The notes below the pieces were generated by a model. That model ran no database searches, was not told the DNA's origin, and saw only the letters and a list, made by a program, of their open reading frames with translations. Of a stretch of 49,451 bases of DNA, positions 4,369-30,890 are shown piece by piece; the first letter of the stretch is position 1; each line of letters starts with the position of its first letter. The stretch lies in IMG/VR virus record IMGVR_UViG_3300027976_003189. One strand, 5' to 3'. Both the position numbers and the translations under genes were made by a program. This DNA comes from a virus.

Positions 4369-4898
4369 TTTAATCTTAAAAATCTACCCTTAATGCCTGA
4401 TTGTATCATTCTATTTGTACACTCATTACCATATGAAACTAAAACAGATGGTCCTCCAGAGTTGCTAGATCCTGGCTTTCCACTGGTATAGCAAAATGTA
4501 AGCCTGCCTTCTATAAAAAGTATTCCATCTGCTTTTTCAAAAATATGTCTATGGAACATATCAGTATCAGTTCTGGCAAAAATCAAGGATATTCCATTAC
4601 CATGTTTTGCCAAACGATCTAACCATTTTCCTGTATGCGAACCATAAGGCGGATTTAACCAAACGCAACCTTCCCAGTCTTGTAATAAACCGTCTTCTTT
4701 GGCAGTATAATATTTCCTGGCTGTATCCCAGGGGCGAACAGTAGAAGCACAGGGGTCTAAATCAAATGGTCCTAATTTATCTATAACCCATTTAGGAGTC
4801 AGCCATTCATTTGTCTGTCCCTCATATGCTCTCTGATGCCCTCCTATACCCAAACCTCTTCTGGATGAATATTCTTCAAATAGATCATTAGGTATCAT
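4365..4898 (-). CDS. phage-type N6-adenine DNA methyltransferase (phage Dam-like family)
   Basis: EWLTP, FDLDPCA, DGLLQDW, VWLNPPYG, ARTDT, GRLTF. The ATG at 4898 with a GGAG SD is preferred over the track start at 4916. Confidence 0.92.
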   Translation of the reverse strand: MIPNDLFEEYSSRRGLGIGGHQRAYEGQTNEWLTPKWVIDKLGPFDLDPCASTVRPWDTARKYYTAKEDGLLQDWEGCVWLNPPYGSHTGKWLDRLAKHGNGISLIFARTDTDMFHRHIFEKADGILFIEGRLTFCYTSGKPGSSNSGGPSVLVSYGNECTNRMIQSGIKGRFLRLK

Positions 4899-5685
4899 AG
4901 CTGTCTCCAATATCAATATCAGATTCTATTCTAGATATGGCATTTTGGTAATATTCTTTATTCATTTCGTAACCAACATAATTTCTACCACATCTTTTTG
5001 CTGCCAAGGCTGTTTGGCCAGAACCCATAAAAGGATCTAAAACTAAATCTCCTACAAAGCTATAAAGCCTAATTAGTCTATAAGGTAATTCAATAGGGAA
5101 TGGAGCTGGGTGGGCTAACTTCTTAGAATTAACTGGCTGTATATCCCACAGATCAACTGCCCAATCAGCCCATTCTTTTTTGCTAATAATACTTTTATTT
5201 CTTATATCATCCGAAATTATTTTCTTAAAATCGCCTCTCTGTTTTCTTGCAGTTATAATATGCTCAGTAAGCCCGCTAATAAGAATCAAACCGGGACTGG
5301 GGTACGTACCAAATAATTTTTGCGTAGCAGTTCCTTTTCCTTTATACCAGATAATATCTTTCTCATAAAAGAAACCCAAATCTCTCATAATACAAATTGT
5401 ATCAGCCAGTAATGGTAAAGTTCCTGTTCTTTCTTCCGATTTATCCTTTGGAGGATTAGGAAGGCACTCTTGTATATTCCAGCATATCCACCCTCCTGGC
5501 TTCAATACTCGATAACACTCTTTTATTATTTCTGATATAAAGTCGAGATGATCCTTATATGTTGGCCAGCTCGAATAGCTTTTTAAATTGAAATATGGTG
5601 GAGAACTAACTATCAGATCGACAGAGCTATCCGCCAAATCGTTCATAAATTGGCATGAAGAGTTATGTATTGTATTAACTTGCAT
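4888..5685 (-). CDS. beta-class N4C/N6A DNA methyltransferase
   Basis: LIVSSPPYF (IV), RVLKPGG, HPAPFPIELP, VLDPFMGSGQT...YVGYE (I). Confidence 0.95.
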   Translation of the reverse strand: MQVNTIHNSSCQFMNDLADSSVDLIVSSPPYFNLKSYSSWPTYKDHLDFISEIIKECYRVLKPGGWICWNIQECLPNPPKDKSEERTGTLPLLADTICIMRDLGFFYEKDIIWYKGKGTATQKLFGTYPSPGLILISGLTEHIITARKQRGDFKKIISDDIRNKSIISKKEWADWAVDLWDIQPVNSKKLAHPAPFPIELPYRLIRLYSFVGDLVLDPFMGSGQTALAAKRCGRNYVGYEMNKEYYQNAISRIESDIDIGDSYDT

Positions 5686-6277
5686 TTAAAATCTTCTTTT
5701 CTCTTTTATTCATAACATACTTTTGCCTCTTTGAAAGCCTGTCAGCTATGCCTTCATAAATTATTTTCAGAGACTCAGAGTCTCTTGCTCTAATAATAGG
5801 ATCTATTTTTCGATATGTGGCATCAACATTTTTCAATTCATCAGTATCATACTCTACGTCTATTAAATAATTAAAAAGAGTTCTACTAATAAGTAAACAA
5901 AACTCGTCTAAAGAATCTATTTCTTTTCCCTCGATGTCTTTGTCTTTAATAAATGCAGCTATTTCATCTACTCTATCTCTATCTGTTATATTCAAATCGC
6001 CAGCTATTTTTCTTATAGCTTCGCTTATATTATAGTTTTTAAGAAAGCATATAAGATTTATTAAATCTCCTCCCTTGCCACATCCAAAGCATTTGAATGT
6101 CTGGTAGTCCCCGTCATCAAATATATAAAAAGAAGGTGACTTATCTGCATGAAGAGGACATGTATATACATATCTTCCACTGTACTGTTTTGCATGGAAT
6201 ATATTCTCAGAAGCAAGATATTCTACAATCTTCTTCTTTTGCAAAATGCTTTTTATAAATGGGTATCTTGTTGACAT
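5675..6277 (-). CDS. stand-alone CHC2 zinc-finger protein (DnaG primase zinc-binding domain without TOPRIM)
   Basis: CPLHADKSPSF...FKCFGCGKGGDLINL...EAIRKIA is the DnaG zinc-binding domain; the remaining ~100 aa look helical with no EGxxD/DxD TOPRIM motifs. Confidence 0.88.
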   Translation of the reverse strand: MSTRYPFIKSILQKKKIVEYLASENIFHAKQYSGRYVYTCPLHADKSPSFYIFDDGDYQTFKCFGCGKGGDLINLICFLKNYNISEAIRKIAGDLNITDRDRVDEIAAFIKDKDIEGKEIDSLDEFCLLISRTLFNYLIDVEYDTDELKNVDATYRKIDPIIRARDSESLKIIYEGIADRLSKRQKYVMNKREKKILNAS

Positions 6278-7764
6278 TAGAATGAGAATATACTATTAAC
6301 GTCTTTAGATTTCACTTTCTTTTTATCATCCGCGGGTTTTTTCTCAAAAGATATATCCTTCATAGCATCATCAACCTTCTTGAGTATATCGCCAGTATCT
6401 GCCGTTGTCCAGTCCAAAGACCTTATAAGACTTATTTCTGGTTTTACTTCTAGAACAGCACTTGTTTGATTATCCCTAAATACTTTCTTACCGTTTCTAG
6501 CTTTGATCACGAAGAATTGCAATCTTTCAGTTGGGTTAGTTGGATCTGGAAACTGTGCGTATATATTATCGGCATCAGCAGAATATTCATGACTTCCTCT
6601 AATATCCTCGGAATATGCCATCATCTTATCAGATTGCGATCTACGCAATCTCTTAAGAGCTTCTCTTCCTATCTGGGCACCTGAAACAATTGCAAAATTA
6701 TACGCTTTTCCCATAGACCTTAGATCTTTTAGCATATCACCAATTTCTAGATCGTTTCTTCCATCTCTTGATAAATCAGGAATTAAGTTAGCAATATAAT
6801 CTATAACTACCAATCTTGGTTTGAATAATTCTATGTGCTTATCTATCTCTCTCCTGATAATAGATACCTTAATTCTTTCCATATATTCTAAAAAATAAAT
6901 CTGAGAAGGCAACTTGACCCATTCCTCAGTTGTATCCTCTATCTTCTTAACTTCTTCATCTGTTAAATGTTTTTTCTTTACTATCTTTTCAAAATTAATT
7001 TGAGTTTCTCTAGAAACCATTTTCTCGATAACTTGTCCTCTAGTCATCTCTAACGGAACAAATAAAACATTTTCTTTTTTATCTTTCCAAATATTCAATG
7101 CCACATTGAGCATCATAGTGGATTTGAAACCTCCAATATCCCCGCAAAATAAAGTCAAAGTTCCTGGAGCGAATCCGTTTAACATTGTATCATCTATTTC
7201 TCTTATGCCACAGCCCAGTACAGGATCTTCTTTAATCTTCCCACTCTTATAATCTTTAATCTTCTGAATATAATCAGGCATAAAATCTAGAACATTTTCA
7301 TAAATCATTTCTTTATGAGAACCAGATTGTTCATCGAACAGCCCTGACAGATCATCAGATAATTTTTTAACAGCTAGGAGATTACCCTTTTTTTCCTGAT
7401 TTTTAGGAAATTGCTGAATTAAATCAGCAGCATTTTGAGCTAAAAAGGAATCTATAATTTTCGACTGAAGCATTGGAAAATCATCTATATTAACAGGAAA
7501 GGAAGATATCCTGTTATAGAGAGTTTCTTCTCCAATAGCTGTTTTCTTATTCTTATATAAATTAAGAACATAATTCTGATAAGACTTTCTTGTTAGCAAA
7601 ACACCATGTTCATTTGCATCCCTGATAGCATCTAAAATAATACGGAATGTTTTGTCAAAATACTTAATAGATGGCTGACCATCAACCCAATTAGAAACCA
7701 ACGTCTTGTTAGTAAGTAACAAGCTAATAAAATGCATTTGGTTTTTTAATCTATCATCGTTCAT
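6277..7764 (-). CDS. dnaB: replicative DnaB-like (SF4) helicase
   Basis: H1 LTLFCGDIGGFKST, H1a VLFVPLEM, H2 LVVIDYI, H3 AIVSGAQIGR, H4 DIRGSHEYSADAD, and KARNG. Confidence 0.93.
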   Translation of the reverse strand: MNDDRLKNQMHFISLLLTNKTLVSNWVDGQPSIKYFDKTFRIILDAIRDANEHGVLLTRKSYQNYVLNLYKNKKTAIGEETLYNRISSFPVNIDDFPMLQSKIIDSFLAQNAADLIQQFPKNQEKKGNLLAVKKLSDDLSGLFDEQSGSHKEMIYENVLDFMPDYIQKIKDYKSGKIKEDPVLGCGIREIDDTMLNGFAPGTLTLFCGDIGGFKSTMMLNVALNIWKDKKENVLFVPLEMTRGQVIEKMVSRETQINFEKIVKKKHLTDEEVKKIEDTTEEWVKLPSQIYFLEYMERIKVSIIRREIDKHIELFKPRLVVIDYIANLIPDLSRDGRNDLEIGDMLKDLRSMGKAYNFAIVSGAQIGREALKRLRRSQSDKMMAYSEDIRGSHEYSADADNIYAQFPDPTNPTERLQFFVIKARNGKKVFRDNQTSAVLEVKPEISLIRSLDWTTADTGDILKKVDDAMKDISFEKKPADDKKKVKSKDVNSIFSF

Positions 7765-8575
7765 TGTTGCCCCTTCTATTATCGGGACATAAAGATATTA
7801 CACAAGTATTTTTAGAAGTAACTATGCGATTTATAGCTGGTCCTAAATATTTTTCTATATCCATTTCTAATTCTGTTCTAAATACTAGTATCGTTATAAG
7901 TTTTTGCTCTATTCTCTGAAAAAAGAACGGATCTATAAATTGTAAATCGAATGCTATAGATCCTGAAGATAAACTAAACTGAGATTGAGATATATTATCA
8001 ACAACAAGCCAATCACATGACTGATAGTGAACTGCTTCTACCCCGTTATCCTCACGATTCATGCTTGAGTTTTTTAATATGGTTTTTAATTTTGTATATT
8101 CTACCCACCCGTATTTAGATTGCATATTTCTATTGCTATTATCGGCTTTGCTCTTAATAGCCTCTTTTAATGCAATAGCAGCAATCATAGATCTTCCTGA
8201 TTTGCCATCAGCATCGCTGAAAATAACTAGATTATTCCCATTATCTTTTCTCTCATTCATTGCTTTAATAGACATGTCTGTTATATTTATACCTGGTTTT
8301 TGCAAACCAGATAAATCGCTATTGTAACAATATCTTGCGATCTGTTCTTTTGCTTTTCTAGCTACAGAAATAGGAACCACCTGCTTGTCATCTATCATGC
8401 CAGTAAAATTGTCTATCGTATACTGCCTATATTCTTCTGGAATAGTGCAAAGCGTCCATGCCATTACCTCTGCAATAATATCGCATGAACAACAATTATG
8501 TGATTTACAGCCACTTGGACAGTATTTTGCCTTTATAACAGCAAATTGCGAATTTTTAGTTGGACCTATGTTCAT
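7754..8575 (-). CDS. DnaC/IstB-like helicase loader with degenerate ATPase motifs
   Basis: N-terminal Cys cluster then IPEEYRQYTIDNF; Walker A-like NLVIFSDADGKSGRSMIAAIA; Walker B-like DWLVVDNI; directly upstream of dnaB. Confidence 0.72.
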   Translation of the reverse strand: MNIGPTKNSQFAVIKAKYCPSGCKSHNCCSCDIIAEVMAWTLCTIPEEYRQYTIDNFTGMIDDKQVVPISVARKAKEQIARYCYNSDLSGLQKPGINITDMSIKAMNERKDNGNNLVIFSDADGKSGRSMIAAIALKEAIKSKADNSNRNMQSKYGWVEYTKLKTILKNSSMNREDNGVEAVHYQSCDWLVVDNISQSQFSLSSGSIAFDLQFIDPFFFQRIEQKLITILVFRTELEMDIEKYLGPAINRIVTSKNTCVISLCPDNRRGNNER

Positions 8576-8586
8576 ATGTCTTTAGC

Positions 8587-8595
8587 AGTATACCC
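8587..8595 (-). promoter_or_regulatory. candidate -10 element (GGGTATACT) upstream of the loader/dnaB genes
   Basis: TATACT lies in the 34-bp gap, 11 nt before the ATG at 8575; no clear -35. Confidence 0.35.
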
Positions 8596-8609
8596 TAAAA
8601 TAATTCACA

Positions 8610-9119
8610 TCATATTGGCGAGATAGTGACAGATAATAATTTGCTAGAAGATGACACCTGCCCTACAACTCCATATTCTTTAAATTTACTTAAAATGGAT
8701 AAAAATTTATCCCTATTATCTTTAACCATTTGGGTTAGTCTACCTTTAATTTCCATTCCGAATTGAACTTTATGTTTTTTTTGTAAAAATTCAATAACTT
8801 TCTTTTCCTTAATTTCTAAATCATGCTCTGCAATAACAGGACTTATAAATACCTGCTTTACAGTCTTATCAGAACTTTCATTGATTTTCTTTTTCTTAGA
8901 AATATCATACTTCAACTTTCCATAATCCATTATTTTACAAATAGAAGGTTCAGTTTTTTTGCCCTCCTGTACTTCAACAAGATCTAACCCGAATTCTATA
9001 GCCTTTTTTCTAGCATCATAGATACTTGTCAAGCCTACACCCGATCCATCAGGTAATACCAAAAATACTTTTGGCGAACGAATCTGTTCATTAATCTTAA
9101 ATAAAATCTTAGCCGACAT
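8610..9119 (-). CDS. infC: translation initiation factor IF-3
   Basis: KINEQIRSPKVFLV...GLDLVEV...CKIMDYGKLKY (N domain) and KQVFISPVIAEHDLEIK...FLQKKHKV...KGR (C domain). AGGAG SD; the ATG at 9119 overlaps the upstream TGA. Confidence 0.93.
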   Translation of the reverse strand: MSAKILFKINEQIRSPKVFLVLPDGSGVGLTSIYDARKKAIEFGLDLVEVQEGKKTEPSICKIMDYGKLKYDISKKKKINESSDKTVKQVFISPVIAEHDLEIKEKKVIEFLQKKHKVQFGMEIKGRLTQMVKDNRDKFLSILSKFKEYGVVGQVSSSSKLLSVTISPI

Positions 9120-20175: not shown

Positions 20176-21234
20176 TTATGAAACTATATTCTTAACTATC
20201 GGCAAATTCTTCCAATTGTGAGGAGTCTGTATATGGTTCGCTCTAACAAATTTCGAACAACTGCTTCTAAATTGATTGAATCTAATTTTACCATCAAGCC
20301 TAACCACATATCCTTCCATCTCATCTCCAGATTCGGATGTATTTTTATACAATGACTTTATTTTATCTTCATCCCACTCGCCTCTGTAAATCACAGGAAC
20401 AGTTTTAAGCCCAAGTAGATTACACCACTCTTCTGTTTCACTCCAATCTAAAGCCTCATTGCTCTCATCCCATATGGAAAATACCATAAAATAACTCTTT
20501 AGATTTTTGTAGGCTATTGAGTGCTTAGCATAGATGTTCTCTCCACAAATTCTCCAGCCATCAGGTATATCTAATCTAATGGTTCCGTGAAGATTTTTAA
20601 GCCACGTCCTTGATCCATGATTGCCTGAATTGATTGACCGAGCATGCATGTAATCCCTACTTATAGTAGAATTTTCCCCATCCATCTTCTCAGTTACTAC
20701 AACTTTTTTTCCTATAAATAAGGAAAGGTCTTTTAATACCCTATCTCCTTTACCCAAGCCTTCACTCCAAGGCAGATGAAATGTTCTTGGGTAATGAAAA
20801 TAACTCGTAAATAAGTGTAAAACGTTACCATGTTCTAGTATTTTTTGAACAGATTTATCTGTAAAAAGTTCCCCCTTTACTCTTGTGCCATTTGCTAATA
20901 ATTGATTACCCCATTTATCATATGCCATACCATATTCATCTTCTAATGAAAATGGTATGATTGTTTCTTTAATTCCTGATGCTTTTCTTACCTCATCACA
21001 TGAAATTACTGTTGTTTCTGCCTTAATATGACAGTCTATACATAAAGTTGACCCATTTTCTAAGTAATAACCACCATTATCCCATAATCTTCTTTCCATA
21101 ATGTGATGAGCATTTATCTTAGATTCATCAAAAGAATGGAATCCACAAATGACGCAGGTATATTTGTCTCGCTTAAATACGTTATTGCGAAAAGTATCAC
21201 GATCAAGCAAGATGTGCTGGTTTTGAGGATACAT
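20176..21234 (-). CDS. HNH endonuclease domain fused to an ATP-dependent RNA ligase-family nucleotidyltransferase
   Basis: HNH: RDKYTCVICG...AHHI...NGSTLCIDCHIKAE. Ligase: HYPRTFHLPWS, TEKMDGEN (motif I), CGEN, EGYVVR, KFVR. ATG at 21234 preferred over TTG at 21249. Confidence 0.9.
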   Translation of the reverse strand: MYPQNQHILLDRDTFRNNVFKRDKYTCVICGFHSFDESKINAHHIMERRLWDNGGYYLENGSTLCIDCHIKAETTVISCDEVRKASGIKETIIPFSLEDEYGMAYDKWGNQLLANGTRVKGELFTDKSVQKILEHGNVLHLFTSYFHYPRTFHLPWSEGLGKGDRVLKDLSLFIGKKVVVTEKMDGENSTISRDYMHARSINSGNHGSRTWLKNLHGTIRLDIPDGWRICGENIYAKHSIAYKNLKSYFMVFSIWDESNEALDWSETEEWCNLLGLKTVPVIYRGEWDEDKIKSLYKNTSESGDEMEGYVVRLDGKIRFNQFRSSCSKFVRANHIQTPHNWKNLPIVKNIVS

Positions 21235-21286
21235 GTAATATAATAACAAAATTAAAGAAAAAATCCGGAGAACGAATTCTATCTTA

Positions 21287-22012
21287 TCAAGAAAATGCAG
21301 GAATATTATACTGCCTCAAAACAGGCATAGATTTGCCTTTCCACTTATTCCTGAACTTCTGCAAACTATTTAGGAATCTCTGGTGCTTATCAGATGCCTT
21401 GCCTAAAGTCTGATGAGGAAAGTGAATTATTCTGGATTTTATATTCCATCCTATTTTAAACCCTGCATCATATGCTCTCTTTGAATAATCTGGATCTTCG
21501 AAATAAGACGGATTGAATTGCATATCGTATGGTCCAATTTTATCAACAACTTCCTTACGAACCATCATTCCTCCACATCCGACATAGCTAAATGTTTCAT
21601 TTAGAGATGTTATTTTCTTTACAGGAAGAAAAGACCTATTTAATTGCCAAGCCTCAACTCCTATCAAGTCATATCCTGTATTTAATACGCTTAAATGCTG
21701 CTCAAGCCATCCTTCCCTTACATACTGATCGTTATCTAGAAACATAAGGATATCACACTCAGACTGCTTACTAAATTCTTCAAATCCTAAATTTCTACCG
21801 CCAATAACTCCTGTGTTATTTTCTGAAAGAAAAATAGACATGTTATCCTTGCGAAAATCTTGTAATAATTTAGGAGTCTCGTCTGATGACCCATTGTCTA
21901 TAAAATGTAAATGAAACAAATCTTGATTAGTATATTTATATAGCAAATCTAAGAATTTTCTAGTTGTACCAATACTGTTGTGGGAAAGAACTACTAAAAA
22001 TACTTTTGACAT
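21287..22012 (-). CDS. glycosyltransferase family 2
   Basis: FIDNGSSDET, NTGVIGGRNLG, FLDNDQ (DxD), GCGGMMVRKEV, YFEDPDYS. Confidence 0.94.
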   Translation of the reverse strand: MSKVFLVVLSHNSIGTTRKFLDLLYKYTNQDLFHLHFIDNGSSDETPKLLQDFRKDNMSIFLSENNTGVIGGRNLGFEEFSKQSECDILMFLDNDQYVREGWLEQHLSVLNTGYDLIGVEAWQLNRSFLPVKKITSLNETFSYVGCGGMMVRKEVVDKIGPYDMQFNPSYFEDPDYSKRAYDAGFKIGWNIKSRIIHFPHQTLGKASDKHQRFLNSLQKFRNKWKGKSMPVLRQYNIPAFS

Positions 22013-22019
22013 TTTATAC

Positions 22020-25000
22020 TCACAAAATTGTTACAGTATTTGAATCTACTGGATCTGAACTATCAAGACCGTCTGATGGAATAATTCTAGCAAACCATCT
22101 CTCTGACTCTTTAATAAAAGATGAAGGAACTATTTTTTCATCTTTCAAATCTTTTACTTCAATATTGTTCCTGAACCACTTAATATCGCTTTGATCTGAT
22201 TGGTTTGAATCTCCATTAGCAATATCGGCATCCGAGAAGGAGTAGGTTAATACCAGATTCTGAGAGCGTCTTGGACGACTAGGCCCAAGCAGTATATTAG
22301 TTACTATAGGAGGAGCATTTTCTATAAGTACAGATTCGCTAGTTATTACCTCTCCGCTTGCTCCTCCTGTTTCAGGACTAATTTCCACAGATATTTCATT
22401 ACCCATAATAAAAGGAATAGTATTAACTGAATTAGTTTCTCCAGGAATAATTCTATCTGCCTTAAATATTATATTTCCTATTTTCTTTTCTTCCCCGAAA
22501 ATTCCACTCTTAAATTCTTCACCATTAACTAGCCATGTTATTTTGGATTTATTTTCCGAACTATCAGATAATAAACTAAATTGAATAACAATAGAGCTAT
22601 TTGCCGTAAACTTTTTCGCTGTAGATCCAGTTGCTGATATAGCTACTAACTTAACATTTTCAGCTGTTGGAGAACCTTCTGATACAGTAGTTATATTAGA
22701 TTGGAATACATTTCCAAAAAGTTCTCCGTCACTAGGTCTTACTGTGAAATAAACTTTATCACCTGGCTTAACAATAGATTGCTTTGCCTTTCTAGCAAGC
22801 ATTTCAGCAGTTATATTTTCAGTTATATCCTTAGTATTAATAGTTAATACCTTTCTCCATAATGGATCGGAAAAATCAGATATATCATTCCATGTTCTAA
22901 GATCATCTAGGAACAATATTCTCGCACCATTTATATACCATCTAATTTCTGTTTGATCTGTATCCTCCTCGTCCCCATTTATATCTACGAACTTATATTG
23001 AGATGTAAATACAGAGTATACTTCAGGATCATCAGGAGTTAATATAATATTATCTGCTTCTGGAGCAATCTTATCTAATGGAGGAAGTAGATTGATATTA
23101 GAATTATACATAAACCCTATACCATCTATTTCTATAGGATCTGATACTGATTTATTAATTAGCCTCATTCCAACTCTAAGGTTATTCCCATTGTTTATAC
23201 GAATAAATAAATTTTTACTCTGAGAAGAAGAGAATACTACTATTCCCTCTCTCGGAAATACTCTGTAAGAATCAGAGCTAATAGAGTCTCCGCTACTATC
23301 AACTATAGCAACTTGAGATGATGGATCCCATCTTCCGAATTTAGCCTTATAAGAGAACCTATCTATTTTAATAATAGGCTCATCACTAAATTTATCTATA
23401 TCATTAGAAAATCTAATTGGTATAAATATCTTTCCGTTATAAGATATATGCTTTTGATTACCTGATTGGAAATCAATCCAGTTACTTGTTCTGGATGTTG
23501 CAACTCCAATCTGTATATCATTTCCTCCGTTTATATTAACATCATTTGTAGCAATAACGACTTGCTGAGGAATAGCCTCTGTGTTCTCGATATCTAAAAA
23601 TAGATAAGATTCTTTAGATAAATTAAAACTAATTGAAACAGACTGAAGCGATGGAGATCCAGGAAGAGGTATAGTTTCATACTCAGGATCATTAGACGCA
23701 GTAAATCCTGTTATTAAAACAACAGAGAATTTTATGTATCTGGCCTCAACGTTATTAAATGATATTATATCATTTGCAGCATAAACATCATTGACATTTG
23801 TAAAAGAAAAACCATCTTTGCTAAATGAAACTTTCCAATTTCCACTTGTATTCTCAAACAATTCAAAAATTGCGGATATACCAGTTATTAATGCTATGTC
23901 ACCTATATCGACTGTGAATTCAAATAAGCCATATCCTAGCGACCCGGTGGCCCCTCCAGCGAATATATCAATTAAATCATTTATAAACAATTCAGAGAGA
24001 ACAGTTATTGACTGACCACCAGTTTTCTTGGATATTTCATCCAACCCGTTTGTGTCACTTCTATTAGATTTAGCAGACAACGTTATTGGCTCTACTATTG
24101 AGAAGTTTCCGATAATAACAGGAACCAACCCCTTGCCATCTATTGAGTTAACAGATTCTATAGCTTCTTCCTTAGATAATATGGACAGGTTTGACTCGTT
24201 ATCAGTTAATAAATATATAGATTTAGATTTATCATCAACGCTATTATCAGAAAGAATACCAGCAACAGAATATATAGCATCAAAAATAGGAGAGCCTCCA
24301 AATGAAACTGTATTCTCTAAGTTTCTAAGCTTGGATAAAATACTTTCTACAGAAGCATCATTCTTATATAATATTTTTTTAGCAACTGGTACCCAGTCTA
24401 TATCACTATAACATCCGACAATAGGACTTGATTGTTGAGCCAATGCGCTTGGTATTAAGCTAAATACTGTAGAAGCAGCGGTATCAAACCCTCCAATAGA
24501 GCTACTTAAAACGTCTATGTTCTCAAATGTTATACCCTTAGAGAACGAAGACCATACAATGCTAGTATTTAAGCTATGAACTACATCACATATATCACTT
24601 TCTCCAGTAATTTTTATACTGCTATTTTTCTTTTTTGAATTTTTAATATTAACAGAACTTTTATTATCTCCAAATAAGCTAACATCATTAATAGTCTGAC
24701 CATAAAATTCGCTATCATTGATAGTTACTTGAACCAATATCTGGTATGATTCTCTTATTTCTCCAGTAATTATTTTCAACAATAACTTTTTAGCAATATC
24801 AGTATCAAGATCAATAGATGCATCTGTAATATCTTTAATAGTTTCAATGCTTTCTAATTTAATGCTTTCTAATATATCTTCTCCTCTTGGTAAAAGGGTA
24901 GCCACACCTTTTCCTTCTGATATAGTTATAATTTTTCTTGTAAATAAAACAGGATATACAGAAAGAGAATCTTCTTGCAATTCTGCTGACTGGCCCTGTC

Positions 25001-28000
25001 CTTTATCAGATTGCTGTCCTAATATCTCTTCAGGCTTAGAGATAGAACTTGCTGTTAAGAATTTTATGAATCCTCTTACGGATACGTTTACATCACGATC
25101 AGGATATTCGCCTGCATCGTCTTTTAATTCTATATTTAAAGATACTGTTGATTTTCCATCTAATCTCATATTAGAAGGAGATATTGACGTTAGCATTTGC
25201 AAGAAGCCATCTTTTCTTCCGCTTTCAAAACCACCTGTAATAAATATGGAAGGATCTCCATACTCTCCAGCCAATGCTACAGCTGCTGAAGCAGCTGTTT
25301 TAGATTTTGGCATATTATCTAGTTTTGTATATTCAAAAGGATAAATAGAAGTATCAATTTTTTCTATCAACCTAAGATGCTGAGATTGTTCGTTAGAACC
25401 ACCTATAAAATATCTATTATCATTATAGGAAACAGAAACAGATTTGTATCTAGGATCAGGTATGGAAGTAAACTCTCCATCATTTATGGATATATCTTCC
25501 GTCCCTATGTCGAAAACAAATGTGTCAGATGGATACGATAATTGATCGTCTCCGCTCTTTCTGTCCAGAATAGAAGCTCCTCCAACTATATATATTGAAC
25601 TTCCGTCATAAAATGACGTTGGAGATATTCTTTGATAAATATCTAAGTCTACTCCGGAAAATAAACTCGTTACGGCCCATTCATCAGTATTAATATCATA
25701 TATTAATACCCTATCATTTAATTTATCCAATTTACCCTGATTACTTATTTCCGTTACTCCACAAAGAATATATATCTTATCAGAAATAACTTGGGCAATT
25801 CCGAAGCATACTCCGTAATTTCTACCATCCACTGTATCATTATCGATAATGGGCATAGAAGTTAAAACATCCCATTCATCAAGAGATGGATTATATACCT
25901 CAATGCTATTACTAACATCCATTGTTTTTGCTATCGGATCTGCTGTTATTCCGCCTATTACGTATATCTTATCATTATTAACAACAGACATAGCTCCGAA
26001 TCTAGGAGTTGGCATACTTGATACAAGAGTCCATTCATCGCTATCTACTGAGTATTTTTCATTAGTTTTAGAAATTGTTGTAGCATCTATGCCTCCTATG
26101 GCATATAAATTATTATCAACAGTTTCAAGAATCATATGTCCTCTGGGTTTGGACATAGGAGATAATGATGCATCCCAATCTTCCGATACAGTATTAAAAA
26201 CGTCTAGTCTTGAACTAAATATATCTGGTATATCTGTTTCGTCAAAGTTACCAGTACTATATTCTACCGAAACACAAACGTTTCTTTCTCTATCAACTTC
26301 TCCACTCTTATCATATGTAGTTGTAAATCTAATAATTTCAAATACTTCATCTTCAGGATTTATAGGGTCTATGGTAACACTGGCATAGCTTTTTGAAATA
26401 GTATCATCGATATCATCATCAGTAGATGCTCTTGTATAAATAATTAAACTTCTAGGAACTATTTTACTTTTTCCACCAGTTATATTTGATTCTATATCTA
26501 CTCTTATAGGAGTTCCATCTGGAACATTTTTTCCAGAAAAAGATACAAAAACAAAAATCTCATTTACTGTTTCTCCATCTATAACAAGAGCATTTGATGG
26601 ATTTCCATTCGCCTTTAACCCGGCAAATGATATTTCTAATGGTTCTCTTGGAACGATAATAGTTGGAGGAACACCGTCTTTAATACCCCCTCCACCTCTA
26701 GCAAATCTTGATGCTCCATCTAAGAAAAGACCAGTAGATCCGCTAACTGTTATTTCTGTACATAAAATTGGAGATAATGGCTTGTCCGTAGCACCTAAGC
26801 ATTCGCATGGATTTACTACTGCGTCATCTCCCAATGGACTATCACCTGAAGGGCATCCTCCCTTTGGAGGAGGGAAGAATCCGTTGATTTGGAAATAAAC
26901 ATAAGTATCATCACTATCTTCAATTTCTATAACAGCCCTATCTTTAGCAGATTTGCCATTGTCTCCAAGAGATATTGATCTATATCCGGTATAAGGGTCT
27001 ATGCCTTCTTCTACGTCTCCCCATAATATATTAACAGCTCCGCTTTCCAATACGGTAGTTGGATCTTCGTCATTAATATCTTGAGAAAGAGTTCTTTCAA
27101 TTCCTGTATTAAGTATTATTCCCTGTCCTTCAATTAACGAACTTATATCTGAGCCAAACGATATAGCACATGATCTAAAGCATGAAGCATATTTTGTCAA
27201 AGCACTACTTGCATCCTTAGATATTCTTAACTTAACATAATCTTCTCCATCTGCCCAAATTACATTCTTCATCTCAGGAAATTCCATGAGAAATCTAAAA
27301 CCAAATCTACTATTGAAACCATATGTTAATGGGAAAATTTCTACAGGTACATTATCTTTTGCAGATAAGCCATCATACTGTACCGAAGTTGAAATAGTAT
27401 ACCTCTCACCTATAAATAGAATTCCACCACCTGATATAACAGTATTCCATTTAACTCCGCTCGCCGGTCCGAAGAATACCCCTCTTGAAACTCCGTTATT
27501 AATCCTGGAGAAAACTCCACTTGTAGGAACCGTAGGATCGGTAGAATAAAATGGTCTGTTTACTCCAAATTCACCAAGAGCCAAACTCCATCTAATAACT
27601 GTACCATCAGGAAGAAGCTTTATCTTGTTTTCATCATTTGGAAAATCAGGATCAATTAGATATGCTTGAGCAAATTGTTCTGCAACATCTGTACCATCTG
27701 AAATTGGAGCTAATACTGTGTTTTTAATAAAAAGTATATTATTAAAATATAGTGTCATATCTTTACTGACATGATACCCATTATAATTTACGCTAATATA
27801 AAGAATAGCACCCTGTTCGAATCTAGGAACAGACAATGGGATATCAACAAAGGATATAATCTCTTTCTCTCCTGTTGTCTTTCCTGTATCCTTGTCAACT
27901 ATATCTTGTATTTTTACCACTGAACTTAATGTAGTTGCTAATGGCAAAACTGTAGTACTAACCCTAAGAGGTCTACTCGTGGGCTTGCAGACATCAACTG

Positions 28001-30890
28001 CTGCATCAAATACTCTTATACTAACAGGAATGCCAGCAGGAATTGATTCATCTTTATACTCTAATAGGACTCTTGCATAGAATGGATTATCTGACCTAAT
28101 ATAAGCACCGTCCATGTTCTTTTCCTCAGAACACGCTCCTTCAGCAGCAAGTAAACTTGAAAATGACATGCCATCACACTTAATTGGACAGTTCTTTCCT
28201 ATTGATCTACCATCTCTGTTAGTAAGATCAACGCTGAATGGATTTATCAATAAAACTGATATGGGAGAGGATTCAAATTCAAATAAATTATCTCCAAATG
28301 TCCCATCTGACCTTCTTGTAGACAAATCAGGAACAGTAGATTTTACTTTTATAGAGAAATCAGCTTTTTGTAGCAAAGATAACAGATCTACAGATGATGT
28401 CATCCGAAGTGATCCCTTTAATACTCCAGGAGATACTATTCTGGAAGTAAAAGAATAAAAATCTGATTCAGAAAAATTATCTATACCAGAAGATGATCCT
28501 CCGAAAATATCTTCATTAAATTTTTGAGTAGAAAATGAAGCATCAACTTGTAATGATATATTTGTATCATCCGCTATAGGAGCTCCCAGTCTATCTGAGA
28601 TTGCAGCATATATTAATACTTCTTCATCAAAGAACCCATCTAGATCTCTTTGAAATTCTATAGGATTATTCCATGAGACAGAGATAGACGAATTATCAAC
28701 AATTTCATATCTTATATTATATATGTCTAGTAATGGTATTCCAACTTCGCTAGCCGATCTAAGAGGAATAACATCTATATTTGTAGATTCTGATACTCTT
28801 CCAACCTTATCTCTATTTACTATAGTATAGAAGGCACTTTTATTATTAGGTATATCCCTATGAACAAAAGACTTATCCGATACAGATCCTTCAAAAACAA
28901 GTTCCCCATCGGTAGATTTGTAATCCGAAATTATAGGATAACCATCTTGTTTATAATAAACTTCTACTCTGGAAATTCTTTCATCAGTACTATTTGACCA
29001 TTTAATATAAGCTTTCTTATTTCCAGCCTTTACGGTTGGACTATAAGGAGCAGAAAGAGAAGGAGATAAAGTATCTAAGGAACCAGATATCTCATCTGGC
29101 AATATATCTATATCAAGAGATATATTTGGAGAATCTTCTAATATGCTATAGTTATTATGTGAATTGTAAGAAAATATTCTATAATTAACTTCTTTTCCGA
29201 GAACAAAATTATCAGAATCAGTTACTATATAAGATCCGGATGAAGCTGTTGTTTCAAATAAAATGTCTCCGTCTTCTTCCCAGGATGGAGCGTTAAATTC
29301 ATTTTTAACAATCCTTATAGAATCATAATTAGCATCAGACGGTATATTGTATTCTAAGACAACAATCCTATCTCCGTTATCAGGATTAGGTTTCGACTTA
29401 TCACTACTATCATCAATAGTTGTAAATTGAGATATATAAGAATCACTTCTTATTGTATTATGTATACTGACTTCTGTTATTTTTCCGAAAAATTTATCAT
29501 AAGAACTAATTCTGTCATAACCAATATCTGCATACTTGTCATCGCCAGATAGTGAATATGCGGCTATCGTGGATGATGAAACACTAAAGCCATTTACAAA
29601 GAATTCTACTGCCCTTGTAGACATATTAACCGTAACCGCTACATGGTTCCATTCATTTGCTGTTAAAGCAGAACCTGATGTCAAAACAGAAGATCCTATC
29701 TTAATTCCAATCTTATCAGTATCTTGGTAAAGTAGATAATTAGTATTAGACGCTGACTGTACACCAGTAATAGCTTTTGTCCCGGTTATAGTATATGGAT
29801 AAATCCATGCCATTACTGTTAAATTTTCAGATGAACCTATTGATAAAGACTGAGATGCAGATTCAGACTGCGCGTACGTTGTAATACTATTAAATCTTAA
29901 TCCCGACAAACCTGAAGGAACATCAGCCGTGCCAAGCCATACTGGTTTCTCATCAGTAATAAGTAAATTTACCTTATTATCAGAGAAATCATATATCCTA
30001 CCTTTTGATCCCTCATCCATATGCCATGCAGCAATAAGGTTATCATCCCTTACTACTCCTGTTCCTCGTAAGGATTGACCAGAAAAAGATGCGACTCCTC
30101 TTGGAATAACTCTCTCTCTTGGAGTAACTTTTATATTCTTTCCACTACTAAAGTGGAAATTCTTATCAAATGTAAATATAGAATAGAAGTATTCTGTTCC
30201 TTCAATTAAATCTATGTCAAGTATAGCTTCAAAAAATCCCTCAGTAACTATATCTCCATCAATAGGACTTGTAGGATAAGATCCTTCTTTCCTTAAAACC
30301 CTTATACCTGCGAATCTGCTCTCATCATCCTGAAAGAAGGAATTGTTTATATCTTGGAAATTAGTTCCAGAAATATCTGAGCTTTGCAATATAGCAAACA
30401 TTGTAACGTTAATAGGATCTCCAGCAAAACTTAATAAGTTAAAAGATACATTTCCAGGATATGTGCTTGCCAACCTTGTAACCAATCTCTGCGCCATTGT
30501 ATGACGAAGACCTGTCTGATCGTTCCAACTCTGACTACCGCTCATATCCATAAGAATAGACATTATGTGGTCATCAAGAGAAAGATCAACCTTCTCTACG
30601 TCTCCATCAACTTGTGTTATTTTTGTTCTAAAAAGTAGATCATCCGTAACCTCAGAGGAGAAATTGGAAATTGATCTTGTAATATTTTCTGCTGGATACG
30701 AACTTAAAGCATCAGGGTCAGATTTATTGGGCTGAGAGTCTGTTGACTCAATAAGAGAATCACGATCACTAAATACTTTTATAGCATGCTTCTTATTACT
30801 ATTTAAAAGCCAAACACCAGTAGAAAGAGAAGATTCCTTGTCGGAAGCTTTATAATATTCTAAATGTCCATTTTCAATCAATTCAGACAT
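22020..30890 (-). CDS. giant multidomain virion/tail adhesin-like protein (split vWA, FN3-like, LamG, Ig-like, Kelch propeller, three C-terminal A9-like Ig repeats)
   Basis: MIDAS DMSGSQS at aa 115; LamG AAWHMDEG...WNHVAVT; Kelch repeats LYAIGG/IYVIGG/IYIVGG/FITGG; vWA C-half GGSPIFDAI...LLTD...KTGG at aa ~2198-2292. No signal peptide. Confidence 0.88.
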   Translation of the reverse strand: MSELIENGHLEYYKASDKESSLSTGVWLLNSNKKHAIKVFSDRDSLIESTDSQPNKSDPDALSSYPAENITRSISNFSSEVTDDLLFRTKITQVDGDVEKVDLSLDDHIMSILMDMSGSQSWNDQTGLRHTMAQRLVTRLASTYPGNVSFNLLSFAGDPINVTMFAILQSSDISGTNFQDINNSFFQDDESRFAGIRVLRKEGSYPTSPIDGDIVTEGFFEAILDIDLIEGTEYFYSIFTFDKNFHFSSGKNIKVTPRERVIPRGVASFSGQSLRGTGVVRDDNLIAAWHMDEGSKGRIYDFSDNKVNLLITDEKPVWLGTADVPSGLSGLRFNSITTYAQSESASQSLSIGSSENLTVMAWIYPYTITGTKAITGVQSASNTNYLLYQDTDKIGIKIGSSVLTSGSALTANEWNHVAVTVNMSTRAVEFFVNGFSVSSSTIAAYSLSGDDKYADIGYDRISSYDKFFGKITEVSIHNTIRSDSYISQFTTIDDSSDKSKPNPDNGDRIVVLEYNIPSDANYDSIRIVKNEFNAPSWEEDGDILFETTASSGSYIVTDSDNFVLGKEVNYRIFSYNSHNNYSILEDSPNISLDIDILPDEISGSLDTLSPSLSAPYSPTVKAGNKKAYIKWSNSTDERISRVEVYYKQDGYPIISDYKSTDGELVFEGSVSDKSFVHRDIPNNKSAFYTIVNRDKVGRVSESTNIDVIPLRSASEVGIPLLDIYNIRYEIVDNSSISVSWNNPIEFQRDLDGFFDEEVLIYAAISDRLGAPIADDTNISLQVDASFSTQKFNEDIFGGSSSGIDNFSESDFYSFTSRIVSPGVLKGSLRMTSSVDLLSLLQKADFSIKVKSTVPDLSTRRSDGTFGDNLFEFESSPISVLLINPFSVDLTNRDGRSIGKNCPIKCDGMSFSSLLAAEGACSEEKNMDGAYIRSDNPFYARVLLEYKDESIPAGIPVSIRVFDAAVDVCKPTSRPLRVSTTVLPLATTLSSVVKIQDIVDKDTGKTTGEKEIISFVDIPLSVPRFEQGAILYISVNYNGYHVSKDMTLYFNNILFIKNTVLAPISDGTDVAEQFAQAYLIDPDFPNDENKIKLLPDGTVIRWSLALGEFGVNRPFYSTDPTVPTSGVFSRINNGVSRGVFFGPASGVKWNTVISGGGILFIGERYTISTSVQYDGLSAKDNVPVEIFPLTYGFNSRFGFRFLMEFPEMKNVIWADGEDYVKLRISKDASSALTKYASCFRSCAISFGSDISSLIEGQGIILNTGIERTLSQDINDEDPTTVLESGAVNILWGDVEEGIDPYTGYRSISLGDNGKSAKDRAVIEIEDSDDTYVYFQINGFFPPPKGGCPSGDSPLGDDAVVNPCECLGATDKPLSPILCTEITVSGSTGLFLDGASRFARGGGGIKDGVPPTIIVPREPLEISFAGLKANGNPSNALVIDGETVNEIFVFVSFSGKNVPDGTPIRVDIESNITGGKSKIVPRSLIIYTRASTDDDIDDTISKSYASVTIDPINPEDEVFEIIRFTTTYDKSGEVDRERNVCVSVEYSTGNFDETDIPDIFSSRLDVFNTVSEDWDASLSPMSKPRGHMILETVDNNLYAIGGIDATTISKTNEKYSVDSDEWTLVSSMPTPRFGAMSVVNNDKIYVIGGITADPIAKTMDVSNSIEVYNPSLDEWDVLTSMPIIDNDTVDGRNYGVCFGIAQVISDKIYILCGVTEISNQGKLDKLNDRVLIYDINTDEWAVTSLFSGVDLDIYQRISPTSFYDGSSIYIVGGASILDRKSGDDQLSYPSDTFVFDIGTEDISINDGEFTSIPDPRYKSVSVSYNDNRYFIGGSNEQSQHLRLIEKIDTSIYPFEYTKLDNMPKSKTAASAAVALAGEYGDPSIFITGGFESGRKDGFLQMLTSISPSNMRLDGKSTVSLNIELKDDAGEYPDRDVNVSVRGFIKFLTASSISKPEEILGQQSDKGQGQSAELQEDSLSVYPVLFTRKIITISEGKGVATLLPRGEDILESIKLESIETIKDITDASIDLDTDIAKKLLLKIITGEIRESYQILVQVTINDSEFYGQTINDVSLFGDNKSSVNIKNSKKKNSSIKITGESDICDVVHSLNTSIVWSSFSKGITFENIDVLSSSIGGFDTAASTVFSLIPSALAQQSSPIVGCYSDIDWVPVAKKILYKNDASVESILSKLRNLENTVSFGGSPIFDAIYSVAGILSDNSVDDKSKSIYLLTDNESNLSILSKEEAIESVNSIDGKGLVPVIIGNFSIVEPITLSAKSNRSDTNGLDEISKKTGGQSITVLSELFINDLIDIFAGGATGSLGYGLFEFTVDIGDIALITGISAIFELFENTSGNWKVSFSKDGFSFTNVNDVYAANDIISFNNVEARYIKFSVVLITGFTASNDPEYETIPLPGSPSLQSVSISFNLSKESYLFLDIENTEAIPQQVVIATNDVNINGGNDIQIGVATSRTSNWIDFQSGNQKHISYNGKIFIPIRFSNDIDKFSDEPIIKIDRFSYKAKFGRWDPSSQVAIVDSSGDSISSDSYRVFPREGIVVFSSSQSKNLFIRINNGNNLRVGMRLINKSVSDPIEIDGIGFMYNSNINLLPPLDKIAPEADNIILTPDDPEVYSVFTSQYKFVDINGDEEDTDQTEIRWYINGARILFLDDLRTWNDISDFSDPLWRKVLTINTKDITENITAEMLARKAKQSIVKPGDKVYFTVRPSDGELFGNVFQSNITTVSEGSPTAENVKLVAISATGSTAKKFTANSSIVIQFSLLSDSSENKSKITWLVNGEEFKSGIFGEEKKIGNIIFKADRIIPGETNSVNTIPFIMGNEISVEISPETGGASGEVITSESVLIENAPPIVTNILLGPSRPRRSQNLVLTYSFSDADIANGDSNQSDQSDIKWFRNNIEVKDLKDEKIVPSSFIKESERWFARIIPSDGLDSSDPVDSNTVTIL

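What the first reader, a model, noticed from the sequence alone, without database searches (positions are those of the whole stretch)
23960..30570. A single vWA domain split by a ~2000-residue insertion
Seen: aa ~108-157 give the vWA N-half (HIMSILMDMSGSQSWND, helix, VSFNLLSFAG) and the vWA pattern then stops. The missing C-half appears at aa ~2175-2310 (ILSKLRNL...GGSPIFDAI...SIYLLTDNESN...PVIIGNF...LDEISKKTGGQSITV). Neither half has another partner in the protein. Between them lie FN3-like, LamG, Ig-like and Kelch domains. Established: MIDAS needs DxSxS plus a downstream T/S and D. Inference: the chain forms a giant loop closed by a metal-dependent vWA clasp, or the halves complement between subunits; this could act as an assembly latch or adsorption trigger.
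Basis: partly seen in the sequence, partly recalled or inferred. Interest (0 to 1): 0.82.

Follow-up and report, generated by a model that had tools for sequence, protein, structure and literature searches.

The report
Phage vWA domain split by giant insert
A 2,956-residue protein of an uncultured huge phage carries one small metal-binding adhesion (vWA) domain in two pieces about 2,000 residues apart, and related phages put the pieces on two separate proteins, so the domain probably works as a clasp joining distant or separate parts of a giant adhesin-like protein.

Summary
The ORF at window 22020-30890 (- strand, 2,956 aa) has the first part of a vWA domain (strand A with DMSGS, helix 1, strands B and C; aa 98-172). 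The remainder (helix 2 to helix 7, with the MIDAS Ser2200 and Asp2230) lies at aa 2168-2322. About 1,995 residues of FN3-like, LamG, Ig-like and Kelch domains lie between them.

The two pieces cover complementary parts of the Pfam VWA_2 model: 3-53 for the N-half here, 51-106 for the C-half of relatives. All five MIDAS residues are nearly invariant across the family. A two-chain model pairs strand A with strand D (ipSAE 0.71, best control 0.00). Neither piece folds confidently with its own neighbouring sequence.

Every sufficiently long relative keeps both pieces 1,480-2,900 residues apart, and none is contiguous. In at least four loci the gene is split just before or just after the Kelch propeller, so the pieces lie on adjacent proteins.

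Best reading: one discontinuous vWA fold acting as a clasp. A role in the virion, in metal-dependent closure or as a trigger is untested. This scan noted the same arrangement earlier in at least six other phage genomes. I found no paper describing it.

The parts
22020..30890 (-). Giant ORF, 2,956 aa (P0001), adhesin-like multi-domain protein that carries the split vWA domain
   Evidence: 19 full-length relatives at 28-86% identity. 161 family hits in the 1.84-billion-protein library.
30375..30599 (-). vWA N-half, aa 98-172: strand A, MIDAS loop, helix 1, strands B and C
   Evidence: Pfam VWA_2 positions 3-53 of 107. The profile of 120 N-halves hits vWA chains in the PDB (9no5 E 1.8e-4, PilB, CobT, PTMP1, CLCA1, ITIH4). 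Translation checked.
30534..30548 (-). MIDAS motif D115-M-S117-G-S119, followed by the family-specific W122-N123-D124
   Evidence: D, S, G, S, W and D are each conserved in 119-120 of 120 N-halves..
24390..30374 (-). Insert of about 1,995 aa (aa 173-2167) between strand C and helix 2 of the vWA fold
   Evidence: The gap between the halves is 1,480-2,900 aa in every relative that has both.
30105..30323 (-). FN3-like beta-sandwich, aa ~190-262, first domain of the insert
   Evidence: Folded with pLDDT 75-87 while the adjacent N-half stays below 50.
29433..29846 (-). LamG / concanavalin-like domain, aa 349-486
   Evidence: PF13385, E 3.1e-16.
25176..26213 (-). Kelch beta-propeller, aa ~1560-1905
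   Evidence: Kelch_1 E 2.7e-19, plus the Kelch_KLHDC2 and Attractin/LZTR1 propeller families over aa 1560-1772. The end of the propeller is taken from collinearity with the split relatives.
26256..26288 (-). Position equivalent to gene-fission point 1 (aa ~1535-1545, just before the Kelch propeller). The gene is not split in this window.
   Evidence: L003, L005, L006 and L008 gene pairs are collinear with P0001.
25176..25214 (-). Position equivalent to gene-fission point 2 (aa ~1893-1905, just after the Kelch propeller). The gene is not split in this window.
   Evidence: L002, L004 and L007 gene pairs are collinear with P0001.
23925..24389 (-). vWA C-half, aa 2168-2322: helix 2, MIDAS Ser loop, helix 3, strand D with the MIDAS Asp, then helix/strand repeats to helix 7
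   Evidence: The predicted secondary structure H H E H E H H E H is as expected for this part of a vWA fold.
24291..24293 (-). Codon of Ser2200, in the place of the MIDAS Thr (motif F-G-G-S)
   Evidence: S in 99 and T in 2 of 101 C-halves. Aligned to the G-K/R-T loop of TRAP.
24201..24203 (-). Codon of Asp2230, the MIDAS Asp at the end of strand D (motif L-L-T-D-N)
   Evidence: D in 101 of 101 C-halves. Aligned to the TDG motif of TRAP and GBS104.
23607..23942 (-). Discoidin / CBM32-like beta-sandwich directly after the vWA C-half, aa ~2317-2428
   Evidence: pLDDT 74-86. Foldseek CBM32 hits at E 1.5e-4. VIA-align Z about 8 to F5/8 type C, CBM32 and neuropilin b1 domains.

Best explanation
The ORF encodes a giant adhesin-like protein of an uncultured huge phage. 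It is probably a particle appendage, but that is inferred from its domain content only.

One vWA/MIDAS domain in it is discontinuous. Strand A (with DxSxS), helix 1 and strands B and C lie at aa 98-172. The chain then leaves the domain for about 1,995 residues of FN3-like, LamG, Ig-like and Kelch-propeller domains. It returns at aa 2168-2322 with helix 2, the Ser2200 loop, strand D with Asp2230, and the remaining strands and helices.

The two pieces fold together into one Rossmann-like domain with a complete five-residue metal site. This ties the two ends of the insert together, so the insert becomes a closed giant loop. From textbook vWA topology, the break after strand C lies on the face opposite the metal site, which would stay free to bind a carboxylate ligand.

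In related phages the gene has been cut just before or just after the Kelch propeller. There the same fold must form from two polypeptides, so the domain acts as a non-covalent joint between them.

Shown here: the two pieces, their complementarity, their conservation and the split-gene forms. Predicted: that they fold together. Inferred: the clasp role, ligand binding and a place in the virion.
For: 1. Complementary coverage of one model. The N-half of P0001 matches VWA_2 positions 3-53 of 107. The C-halves of relatives P0134 and P0068 match VWA_2 positions 51-106 and 52-106. The P0134 C-half also matches PF00092 positions 62-166 of 174 above the curated cut-off.

2. Independent profile searches of each half hit solved vWA domains first. 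Language-model features of the C-half point to VWA clusters.

3. The MIDAS residues are the best-conserved positions of each half. D115, S117 and S119 are conserved in 119-120 of 120 N-halves. S/T2200 and D2230 are each conserved in 101 of 101 C-halves.

4. The two-chain model gave ipSAE 0.71 (runs 0.73, 0.71, 0.71) against a best control of 0.00. At least 87% of contacts agreed between runs and the partner pLDDT was at least 63. The tool's mark was reached by 58 of 80 solved complexes and by 2 of 110 mismatched pairs.
- The best-defined contacts are C-half residues 55-61 (KSIYLL, strand D) with N-half residues 11-17 (HIMSILM, strand A).
- One face of the last helix touches the N-half.
- All five MIDAS residues lie in the interface.

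5. Each half is unconvincing alone but gains confidence with its partner.
- Modelled with its own flanks, the C-half reaches pLDDT ~45-66 and the 83 residues upstream are disordered.
- The N-half stays below 50 while the FN3-like domain next to it reaches 75-87.
- In the complex runs the C-half has pLDDT 70 with the N-half against 47-48 with unrelated partners. The N-half has 63-64 against 35.

6. In the family scan, every protein of 2,277 aa or more that matched the C-half as a single stretch also carries the N-half, 1,480-2,900 aa upstream. The two halves are never adjacent.

7. Four loci show a two-gene form: gene A carries the N-half and the next gene, in another frame, carries the C-half.
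- L004: 1,926 aa then 1,049 aa.
- L007: 1,984 aa then 1,024 aa.
- L006: 1,608 aa then 1,531 aa.
- L008: 1,276 aa then 1,527 aa.
- The pairs are collinear with P0001 end to end.
- The length classes recur in dozens of 50%-identity clusters.
Against: - No coordinates of the two-chain model were available. The fold could not be superposed on a solved vWA domain, nor the metal-site geometry measured.
- The complex prediction used my own alignments, and vWA domains are abundant among solved structures. The pass may therefore partly reflect likeness to known folds.
- P0001's own C-half has no significant Pfam or PDB hit. The family profile reaches only E 0.04 against the PDB.
- The position that is usually Thr is Ser, and the usual TDG motif is TDN.
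- No contiguous ancestor or short-insert intermediate was found.
- No family search assigns the protein or its neighbours to the virion.
- Pairing within one chain cannot be told from pairing between subunits.
Confidence: 0.78

Rival explanations
1. The two pieces do form a vWA fold, but between subunits. The N-half of one chain pairs with the C-half of another (a domain swap), giving dimers, rings or head-to-tail chains of the giant protein instead of closing a loop within one chain.
For: The two-gene forms prove that pairing between separate chains is the normal state in many relatives. The complex model was itself a two-chain model. Phage fibres are commonly oligomers (general knowledge).
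Against: - Nothing in the data favours swapping over closure within one chain.
- In the two-gene forms the natural partner is the product of the adjacent gene. That maps onto the same chain in the fused form.
- Copies of the whole protein were not modelled.
Confidence: 0.15
2. The pieces are two unrelated or vestigial remnants that do not assemble: a decayed vWA start and a separate alpha/beta segment. Each packs against neighbouring domains.
For: P0001's C-half has no significant family hit by itself. Both single-segment models have low confidence, so they exclude little.
Against: - A vestige would not keep all five metal-site residues nearly invariant down to ~25% identity.
- The pieces cover complementary parts of the Pfam model with nothing missing or duplicated.
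- Both are kept in every sufficiently long relative and in the split-gene forms.
- The flanks of each piece are disordered, or form a separate domain, in the models.
Confidence: 0.05
3. The apparent single giant gene, or the split genes in relatives, are assembly, frameshift or stop-codon-recoding artefacts, and the real arrangement differs.
For: All relatives come from metagenome assemblies. Two contigs carrying P0025 end close to the gene junction.
Against: - The fused form recurs in more than 60 distinct clusters with no internal stops.
- The split forms recur in dozens of clusters with consistent lengths.
- Their junctions show a stop followed closely by an ATG in another frame. One has an AGGAG upstream of the ATG and two have a TAATG overlap, so read-through of a recoded stop cannot join them.
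- The same junction was assembled in two samples.
Confidence: 0.02

Closest known systems
Canonical vWA / integrin alpha-I type domains with a MIDAS (Pfam PF00092, PF13519; solved examples hit here: Plasmodium TRAP 4hqk/4f1j, CLCA1 6pyo, PilB 7ba2)
   Same: DxSxS after strand A. A Ser/Thr on the loop before helix 3. An Asp at the end of strand D. The order of helices and strands. Both halves match the family models in register.
   Different: Known vWA domains are contiguous, at about 180-200 residues. Here the chain leaves after strand C for about 2,000 residues and some 15 or more domains, or for another polypeptide. P0001 does not reach the Pfam cut-off. Ser replaces the usual Thr and TDN replaces TDG. 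An invariant W-N-D follows the DxSxS.
Integrin headpiece nesting (beta-I domain inserted in the hybrid domain; alpha-I domain inserted in the beta-propeller)
   Same: Nested domain architecture around a MIDAS domain. The C-half plus the following beta-sandwich gave weak Foldseek matches to integrin beta headpieces (E about 2e-4 but TM about 0.15). From memory, the motif DxSGSMxWND recalls the integrin beta motif DLSYSMKDD, whose last two Asp residues form the ADMIDAS.
   Different: In integrins the vWA-type domain is the guest, inserted into another domain. Here it is the host that is interrupted. The matches come from a low-confidence model, and the ADMIDAS likeness was not tested.
Gram-positive pilus tip adhesins RrgA (2ww8) and GBS104 (3tw0, 3txa)
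   Same: Adhesins whose vWA domain carries insertions and sits in a nested domain arrangement. They are among the top hits of the C-half profile (E 0.056-0.39).
   Different: From memory, their inserted arms are tens of residues long and lie at other positions. Nothing like a 2,000-residue multi-domain insert or a two-gene form is described for them.
Naturally split proteins that reassemble from two genes (for example split-intein DnaE, or fission pairs of multi-domain enzymes)
   Same: Two adjacent genes encode parts that must associate. The fused and split forms alternate among relatives.
   Different: The cut here is not inside the vWA domain. It lies in the insert, at linkers beside the Kelch propeller, and leaves the two halves of one small domain on different chains. 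There are no intein motifs and no sign of splicing.

Membership tests
vWA / MIDAS domain (Pfam clan of PF00092, PF13519) | DxSxS motif directly after the first strand | tested here: met
   D115-M-S117-G-S119 lies within the VWA_2 match. It is conserved in 119-120 of 120 family N-halves.
vWA / MIDAS domain (Pfam clan of PF00092, PF13519) | Downstream MIDAS Thr/Ser (loop before helix 3) and Asp (end of strand D) | tested here: met
   S2200 and D2230 align to the G-x-T loop and the TDG motif of TRAP and GBS104. S/T and D are each present in 101 of 101 C-halves. They lie about 2,085 residues after the DxSxS instead of about 70-100.
vWA / MIDAS domain (Pfam clan of PF00092, PF13519) | Match to the family model above the curated score | tested here: not met
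   P0001 scores 24.3 bits on VWA_2 against a cut-off of 27, with only model positions 3-53 matched. Its C-half gives no hit alone. The C-half of relative P0134 does pass PF00092 (25.2 against 23.8 bits, positions 62-166). The shortfall is what is expected when a local model sees half a domain at a time.
vWA / MIDAS domain (Pfam clan of PF00092, PF13519) | One alpha/beta Rossmann-like fold with strand A next to strand D in a six-stranded sheet | tested here: inconclusive
   The two-chain model pairs strand A with strand D and places the last helix against the N-half (score 0.71, best control 0.00). The secondary-structure order fits. No coordinates could be compared with solved vWA domains. The single-segment models are of low confidence.
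vWA / MIDAS domain (Pfam clan of PF00092, PF13519) | Domain contiguous in the chain (about 180-200 residues) | tested here: not met
   The halves are 1,994 residues apart here and 1,480-2,900 apart in all relatives that have both. In others they lie on two proteins.
vWA / MIDAS domain (Pfam clan of PF00092, PF13519) | Binds a divalent cation at the MIDAS | not testable with these tools
   This needs a purified protein or a structure.
Integrin beta-I-like subtype (MIDAS plus ADMIDAS) | Second metal site formed by two acidic residues shortly after the DxSxS | not tested
   This is a lead only. N123-D124 are nearly invariant and resemble the integrin beta DD pair recalled from memory, with the spacing off by one residue. 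The Foldseek matches to integrin beta headpieces are weak.
Phage virion appendage / tail-fibre protein | Homology to a known virion protein, or a position inside a tail or baseplate module | tested here: inconclusive
   Only a weak PHROG hit over the Kelch repeats (virion structural protein, E 8e-4) and a Kelch match to a phage structural protein of Paenibacillus phage phiERICV. The neighbours are giant beta-rich proteins without family names. Replication genes lie downstream.

The most novel reading that the evidence does not exclude
The split vWA domain is a regulated joint and not a passive one. The metal site is built from both pieces, and the elements that move in vWA activation belong to different pieces: helix 1 to the N-half and the last helix to the C-half. 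Metal or ligand binding could therefore control whether the two ends of a 2,000-residue loop, or two separate fibre proteins, are locked together. That would give these huge phages a ligand-triggered assembly or release step in a particle appendage. Alternatively, swapping of the halves between chains could build polymers.
Probability: 0.12. Interest if true: 0.85.

Novelty: new variant of a known kind. Interest (0 to 1): 0.64.

Why it matters
vWA/MIDAS domains are among the best-studied adhesion modules, and as far as I know and could search they are always contiguous.

This family keeps one vWA domain interrupted by 1,500-2,900 residues, or divided between two proteins. That is an extreme case of domain nesting, and a natural demonstration that a vWA fold can be rebuilt from two fragments cut after strand C.

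It matters in three ways. It gives a testable model for how huge phages hold together giant multi-domain proteins. It warns annotators that half-domain hits below threshold can be real. It also suggests a natural pair of fragments that might serve as a protein-joining module.

Tried and rejected
- tblastn of the whole protein against 50,697 deposited phage genomes found only a Kelch match.
- The search for related loci failed with the C-half alignment (no conserved stretch). With P0025 and P0057 in IMG/VR it found nothing.
A single divergent sequence as target is uninformative.
- A search for relatives of that P0014 vWA, meant to build a reference alignment, found none.
- No whole genome is held for this window.
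- VIA-align on the C-half model reported only the discoidin-like sandwich. The vWA part was too uncertain to be tested.
- A search for contiguous or short-insert intermediates found none among 161 family hits.
- Phrase searches for split, interrupted, discontinuous or bipartite VWA found no paper. Broader searches gave nothing relevant.
- Recoded stop codons as the cause of the split genes were considered and rejected, because the downstream genes are in another frame.
Full report
**The object.** The finding lies in one ORF, window 22020-30890 on the minus strand. It is 2,956 aa long with no internal stop. All ORFs of the window run on the minus strand.
- Downstream of the ORF lie a family-2 glycosyltransferase, an RNA ligase, helicases, an exonuclease, primase/DnaB genes and several DNA methyltransferases, all with phage family matches.
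- Upstream lie a 281-aa protein and three further large beta-rich proteins of 1,916, 1,913 and 700 aa without family names.
- Earlier notes of this scan describe the same genome as an uncultured huge phage.
- No whole genome is held. Deposited phage genomes contain no relative beyond a Kelch match.

**Checking the observation.** The N-half is as described. Pfam VWA_2 matches aa 112-163, but only to model positions 3-53 of 107 (E 4.9e-5, below the cut-off). LamG (aa 349-486) and a Kelch propeller (aa 1560-1772) are clear.

The stretch proposed as the missing half (aa ~2175-2310) has no Pfam or PDB match on its own, so I tested it through its relatives.
- 19 full-length homologues (28-86% identical, 2,552-3,449 aa) conserve both stretches.
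- An exhaustive profile search with the C-half found 161 family members.
- A profile of 101 C-halves hits solved vWA domains first: TRAP E 0.044, GBS104 0.056, RrgA 0.39. All are aligned over the G-x-T/S loop and the T-D motif.
- A profile of 120 N-halves hits 9no5 (E 1.8e-4), then the PilB vWA module, CobT, PTMP1, CLCA1 and ITIH4.
- Scanned singly, the families hit by most C-halves are VWA_2 (7 members), DUF1194 (7) and VWA (4).
- The C-half of relative P0134 matches PF00092 positions 62-166 of 174 above the curated cut-off, and VWA_2 positions 51-106 of 107. That of P0068 matches VWA_2 positions 52-106.
- Language-model features of the P0001 C-half alone also point to VWA clusters (0.91, 0.90, 0.89).

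The two pieces therefore cover the model as 3-53 and 51-106, with nothing missing and nothing doubled. The break falls after strand C and before helix 2.

**Do the pieces belong together?** Four lines of evidence say yes.

1. Conservation. The five metal-site residues are the most conserved positions of their halves. D115, S117 and S119 are conserved in 119-120 of 120 N-halves. S or T at 2200 and D at 2230 are each present in 101 of 101 C-halves.

2. A two-chain prediction, using the family alignments of the two halves.
   - It scored ipSAE 0.71 in three runs, against 0.00 for the best of three controls. Contact agreement was at least 87% and the partner pLDDT at least 63.
   - The tool's calibration gives 58 of 80 solved complexes and 2 of 110 mismatched pairs reaching the mark. 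These counts hold only roughly here, because my own alignments were used.
   - The most certain contacts join KSIYLL (strand D, aa 2222-2228) to HIMSILM (strand A, aa 108-114).
   - One face of the last helix (aa ~2297-2311) touches the N-half, and all five MIDAS residues lie in the interface. This is the neighbourhood expected in a vWA sheet.
   - Because vWA structures are common, the pass may reflect likeness to known folds and not independent proof.

   - The C-half modelled with 73 residues upstream and 158 downstream gave the expected helix/strand order but low confidence (pLDDT ~45-66). The upstream flank was disordered, and a separate, confident discoidin/CBM32-like sandwich followed.
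   - The N-half modelled with aa 1-290 stayed below pLDDT 50, while the FN3-like domain next to it reached 75-87.
   - In the complex runs each half gained confidence only with its true partner (C-half 70 against 47-48; N-half 63-64 against 35).

4. Distribution. In the family scan, every protein of 2,277 aa or more that matched the C-half as a single stretch also has the N-half, 1,480-2,900 residues upstream. The halves are never adjacent.

**Split-gene relatives.** Many family members have only the C-half and fall into tight length classes: about 1,000-1,050, 1,070-1,100 and 1,450-1,560 aa. Conversely, proteins with only the N-half cluster at about 1,240-1,280, 1,550-1,620 and 1,930-2,000 aa.

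Fetching their contigs showed adjacent gene pairs.
- L004: A 1,926 aa with the N-half at 85-159; B 1,049 aa with the C-half at 251-405.
- L007: 1,984 aa then 1,024 aa.
- L006: 1,608 aa then 1,531 aa.
- L008: 1,276 aa then 1,527 aa, on a 546-kb contig.

The downstream gene is always in another frame and starts with an ATG 4-11 nt after the stop or overlapping it (TAATG). In L003 an AGGAG precedes the ATG. Read-through of a recoded stop is therefore excluded.

The pairs are collinear with P0001 from about residue 10 to the end. The cuts map to two linkers, at about aa 1535-1545 (just before the Kelch propeller) and about aa 1893-1905 (just after it).

On a tree of the C-half the split forms fall into several separate clades among fused forms. 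This suggests repeated fission or fusion, but the tree rests on 155 columns and its root is arbitrary.

In these phages the vWA fold, if it forms, must be built from two polypeptides.

**Mechanism.** I commit to one discontinuous vWA fold that ties together the two ends of the insert, or two proteins. From textbook vWA topology, the end of strand C and the start of helix 2 lie on the face that also carries the domain's termini, opposite the metal site. The giant insert would therefore hang from the bottom of the domain and leave the metal site exposed for a carboxylate ligand.
- Shown: the pieces, their register, their conservation and the split forms.
- Predicted: their association.
- Inferred: the clasp role, ligand binding and a place in the particle.
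- Not decided: whether the single-chain form pairs within one chain or between subunits, and whether the metal is needed for closure.

**Comparison with known systems.** The domain works like, and by sequence belongs to, the vWA/MIDAS superfamily. It fails two usual properties: contiguity, and the Pfam threshold for this protein.
- Integrins nest a vWA-type domain as a guest inside other domains. Here the vWA domain is the host.
- RrgA and GBS104 carry short arms inserted in their vWA domain.
- I found no paper describing a split, interrupted or discontinuous vWA domain.

**Earlier notes of this scan.** The scan noted the same arrangement on at least six other phage genomes, with the same reading. 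These are unchecked AI notes. My tests on this window agree with them but are not independent of the shared method.

**Verdict.** This is a real feature and a new variant of a known domain kind. It is of moderate to high interest as an extreme, conserved case of domain nesting with natural two-chain forms. The functional claims remain to be tested.

Noticed in passing
P0014 aa ~2104-2290 (relative; no window coordinates): One relative carries an extra, complete and contiguous vWA domain (PF00092 positions 1-160 of 174, above the cut-off) inside the insert, just before its split C-half. A normal vWA domain therefore sits nested within the interrupted one.
   Followed up: partly
window 30521-30527 region (aa 122-124) and the family alignment A6: An invariant W-N-D follows the DxSGS motif (family consensus DQSGSMTWND). 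From memory this resembles the integrin beta DLSYSMKDD motif, whose last two Asp residues form the ADMIDAS, so a second metal site is possible.
   Followed up: no
window 30582-30890 (aa 1-103) and 23607-23942 (aa 2317-2428): Short strands (aa 89-103) directly precede the vWA N-half, and a discoidin-like sandwich directly follows the C-half. Weak Foldseek matches to integrin beta headpieces raise the question of whether these flanks form a further nested, hybrid-like domain.
   Followed up: no
window 21287-22012 (-); L001, L004, L006, L007: A family-2 glycosyltransferase gene lies immediately or closely downstream of the giant gene (or of gene B) in this window and in four related loci. This suggests a conserved link between this protein and glycosylation.
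   Followed up: no
L004 13668-14654: An IS605 OrfB/TnpB-like gene (OrfB_IS605, Cas12f1-like_TNB) sits just downstream of gene B in one related phage contig.
   Followed up: no
L008 1-3346: On a 546-kb contig, a neighbouring protein of 3,426 aa carries a VWA_3/VWA match together with BNR/Sortilin-type repeats. A second vWA-bearing giant protein therefore lies in the same module.
   Followed up: no
window 20176-21249 (-): The 357-aa RNA ligase (phrog_24030, E 3e-124) also matches many HNH endonuclease families over aa ~18-89. This suggests an HNH-like segment at its N-terminus.
   Followed up: no
window 3532-12741 (-): At least four DNA methyltransferase genes (3532-4368, 4888-5685, 10209-11426, 11632-12741) are interleaved with primase and DnaB-like helicase genes.
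   Followed up: no
L001 10388-13164: A ResIII helicase gene in a related contig carries a faint intein-splicing match.
   Followed up: no
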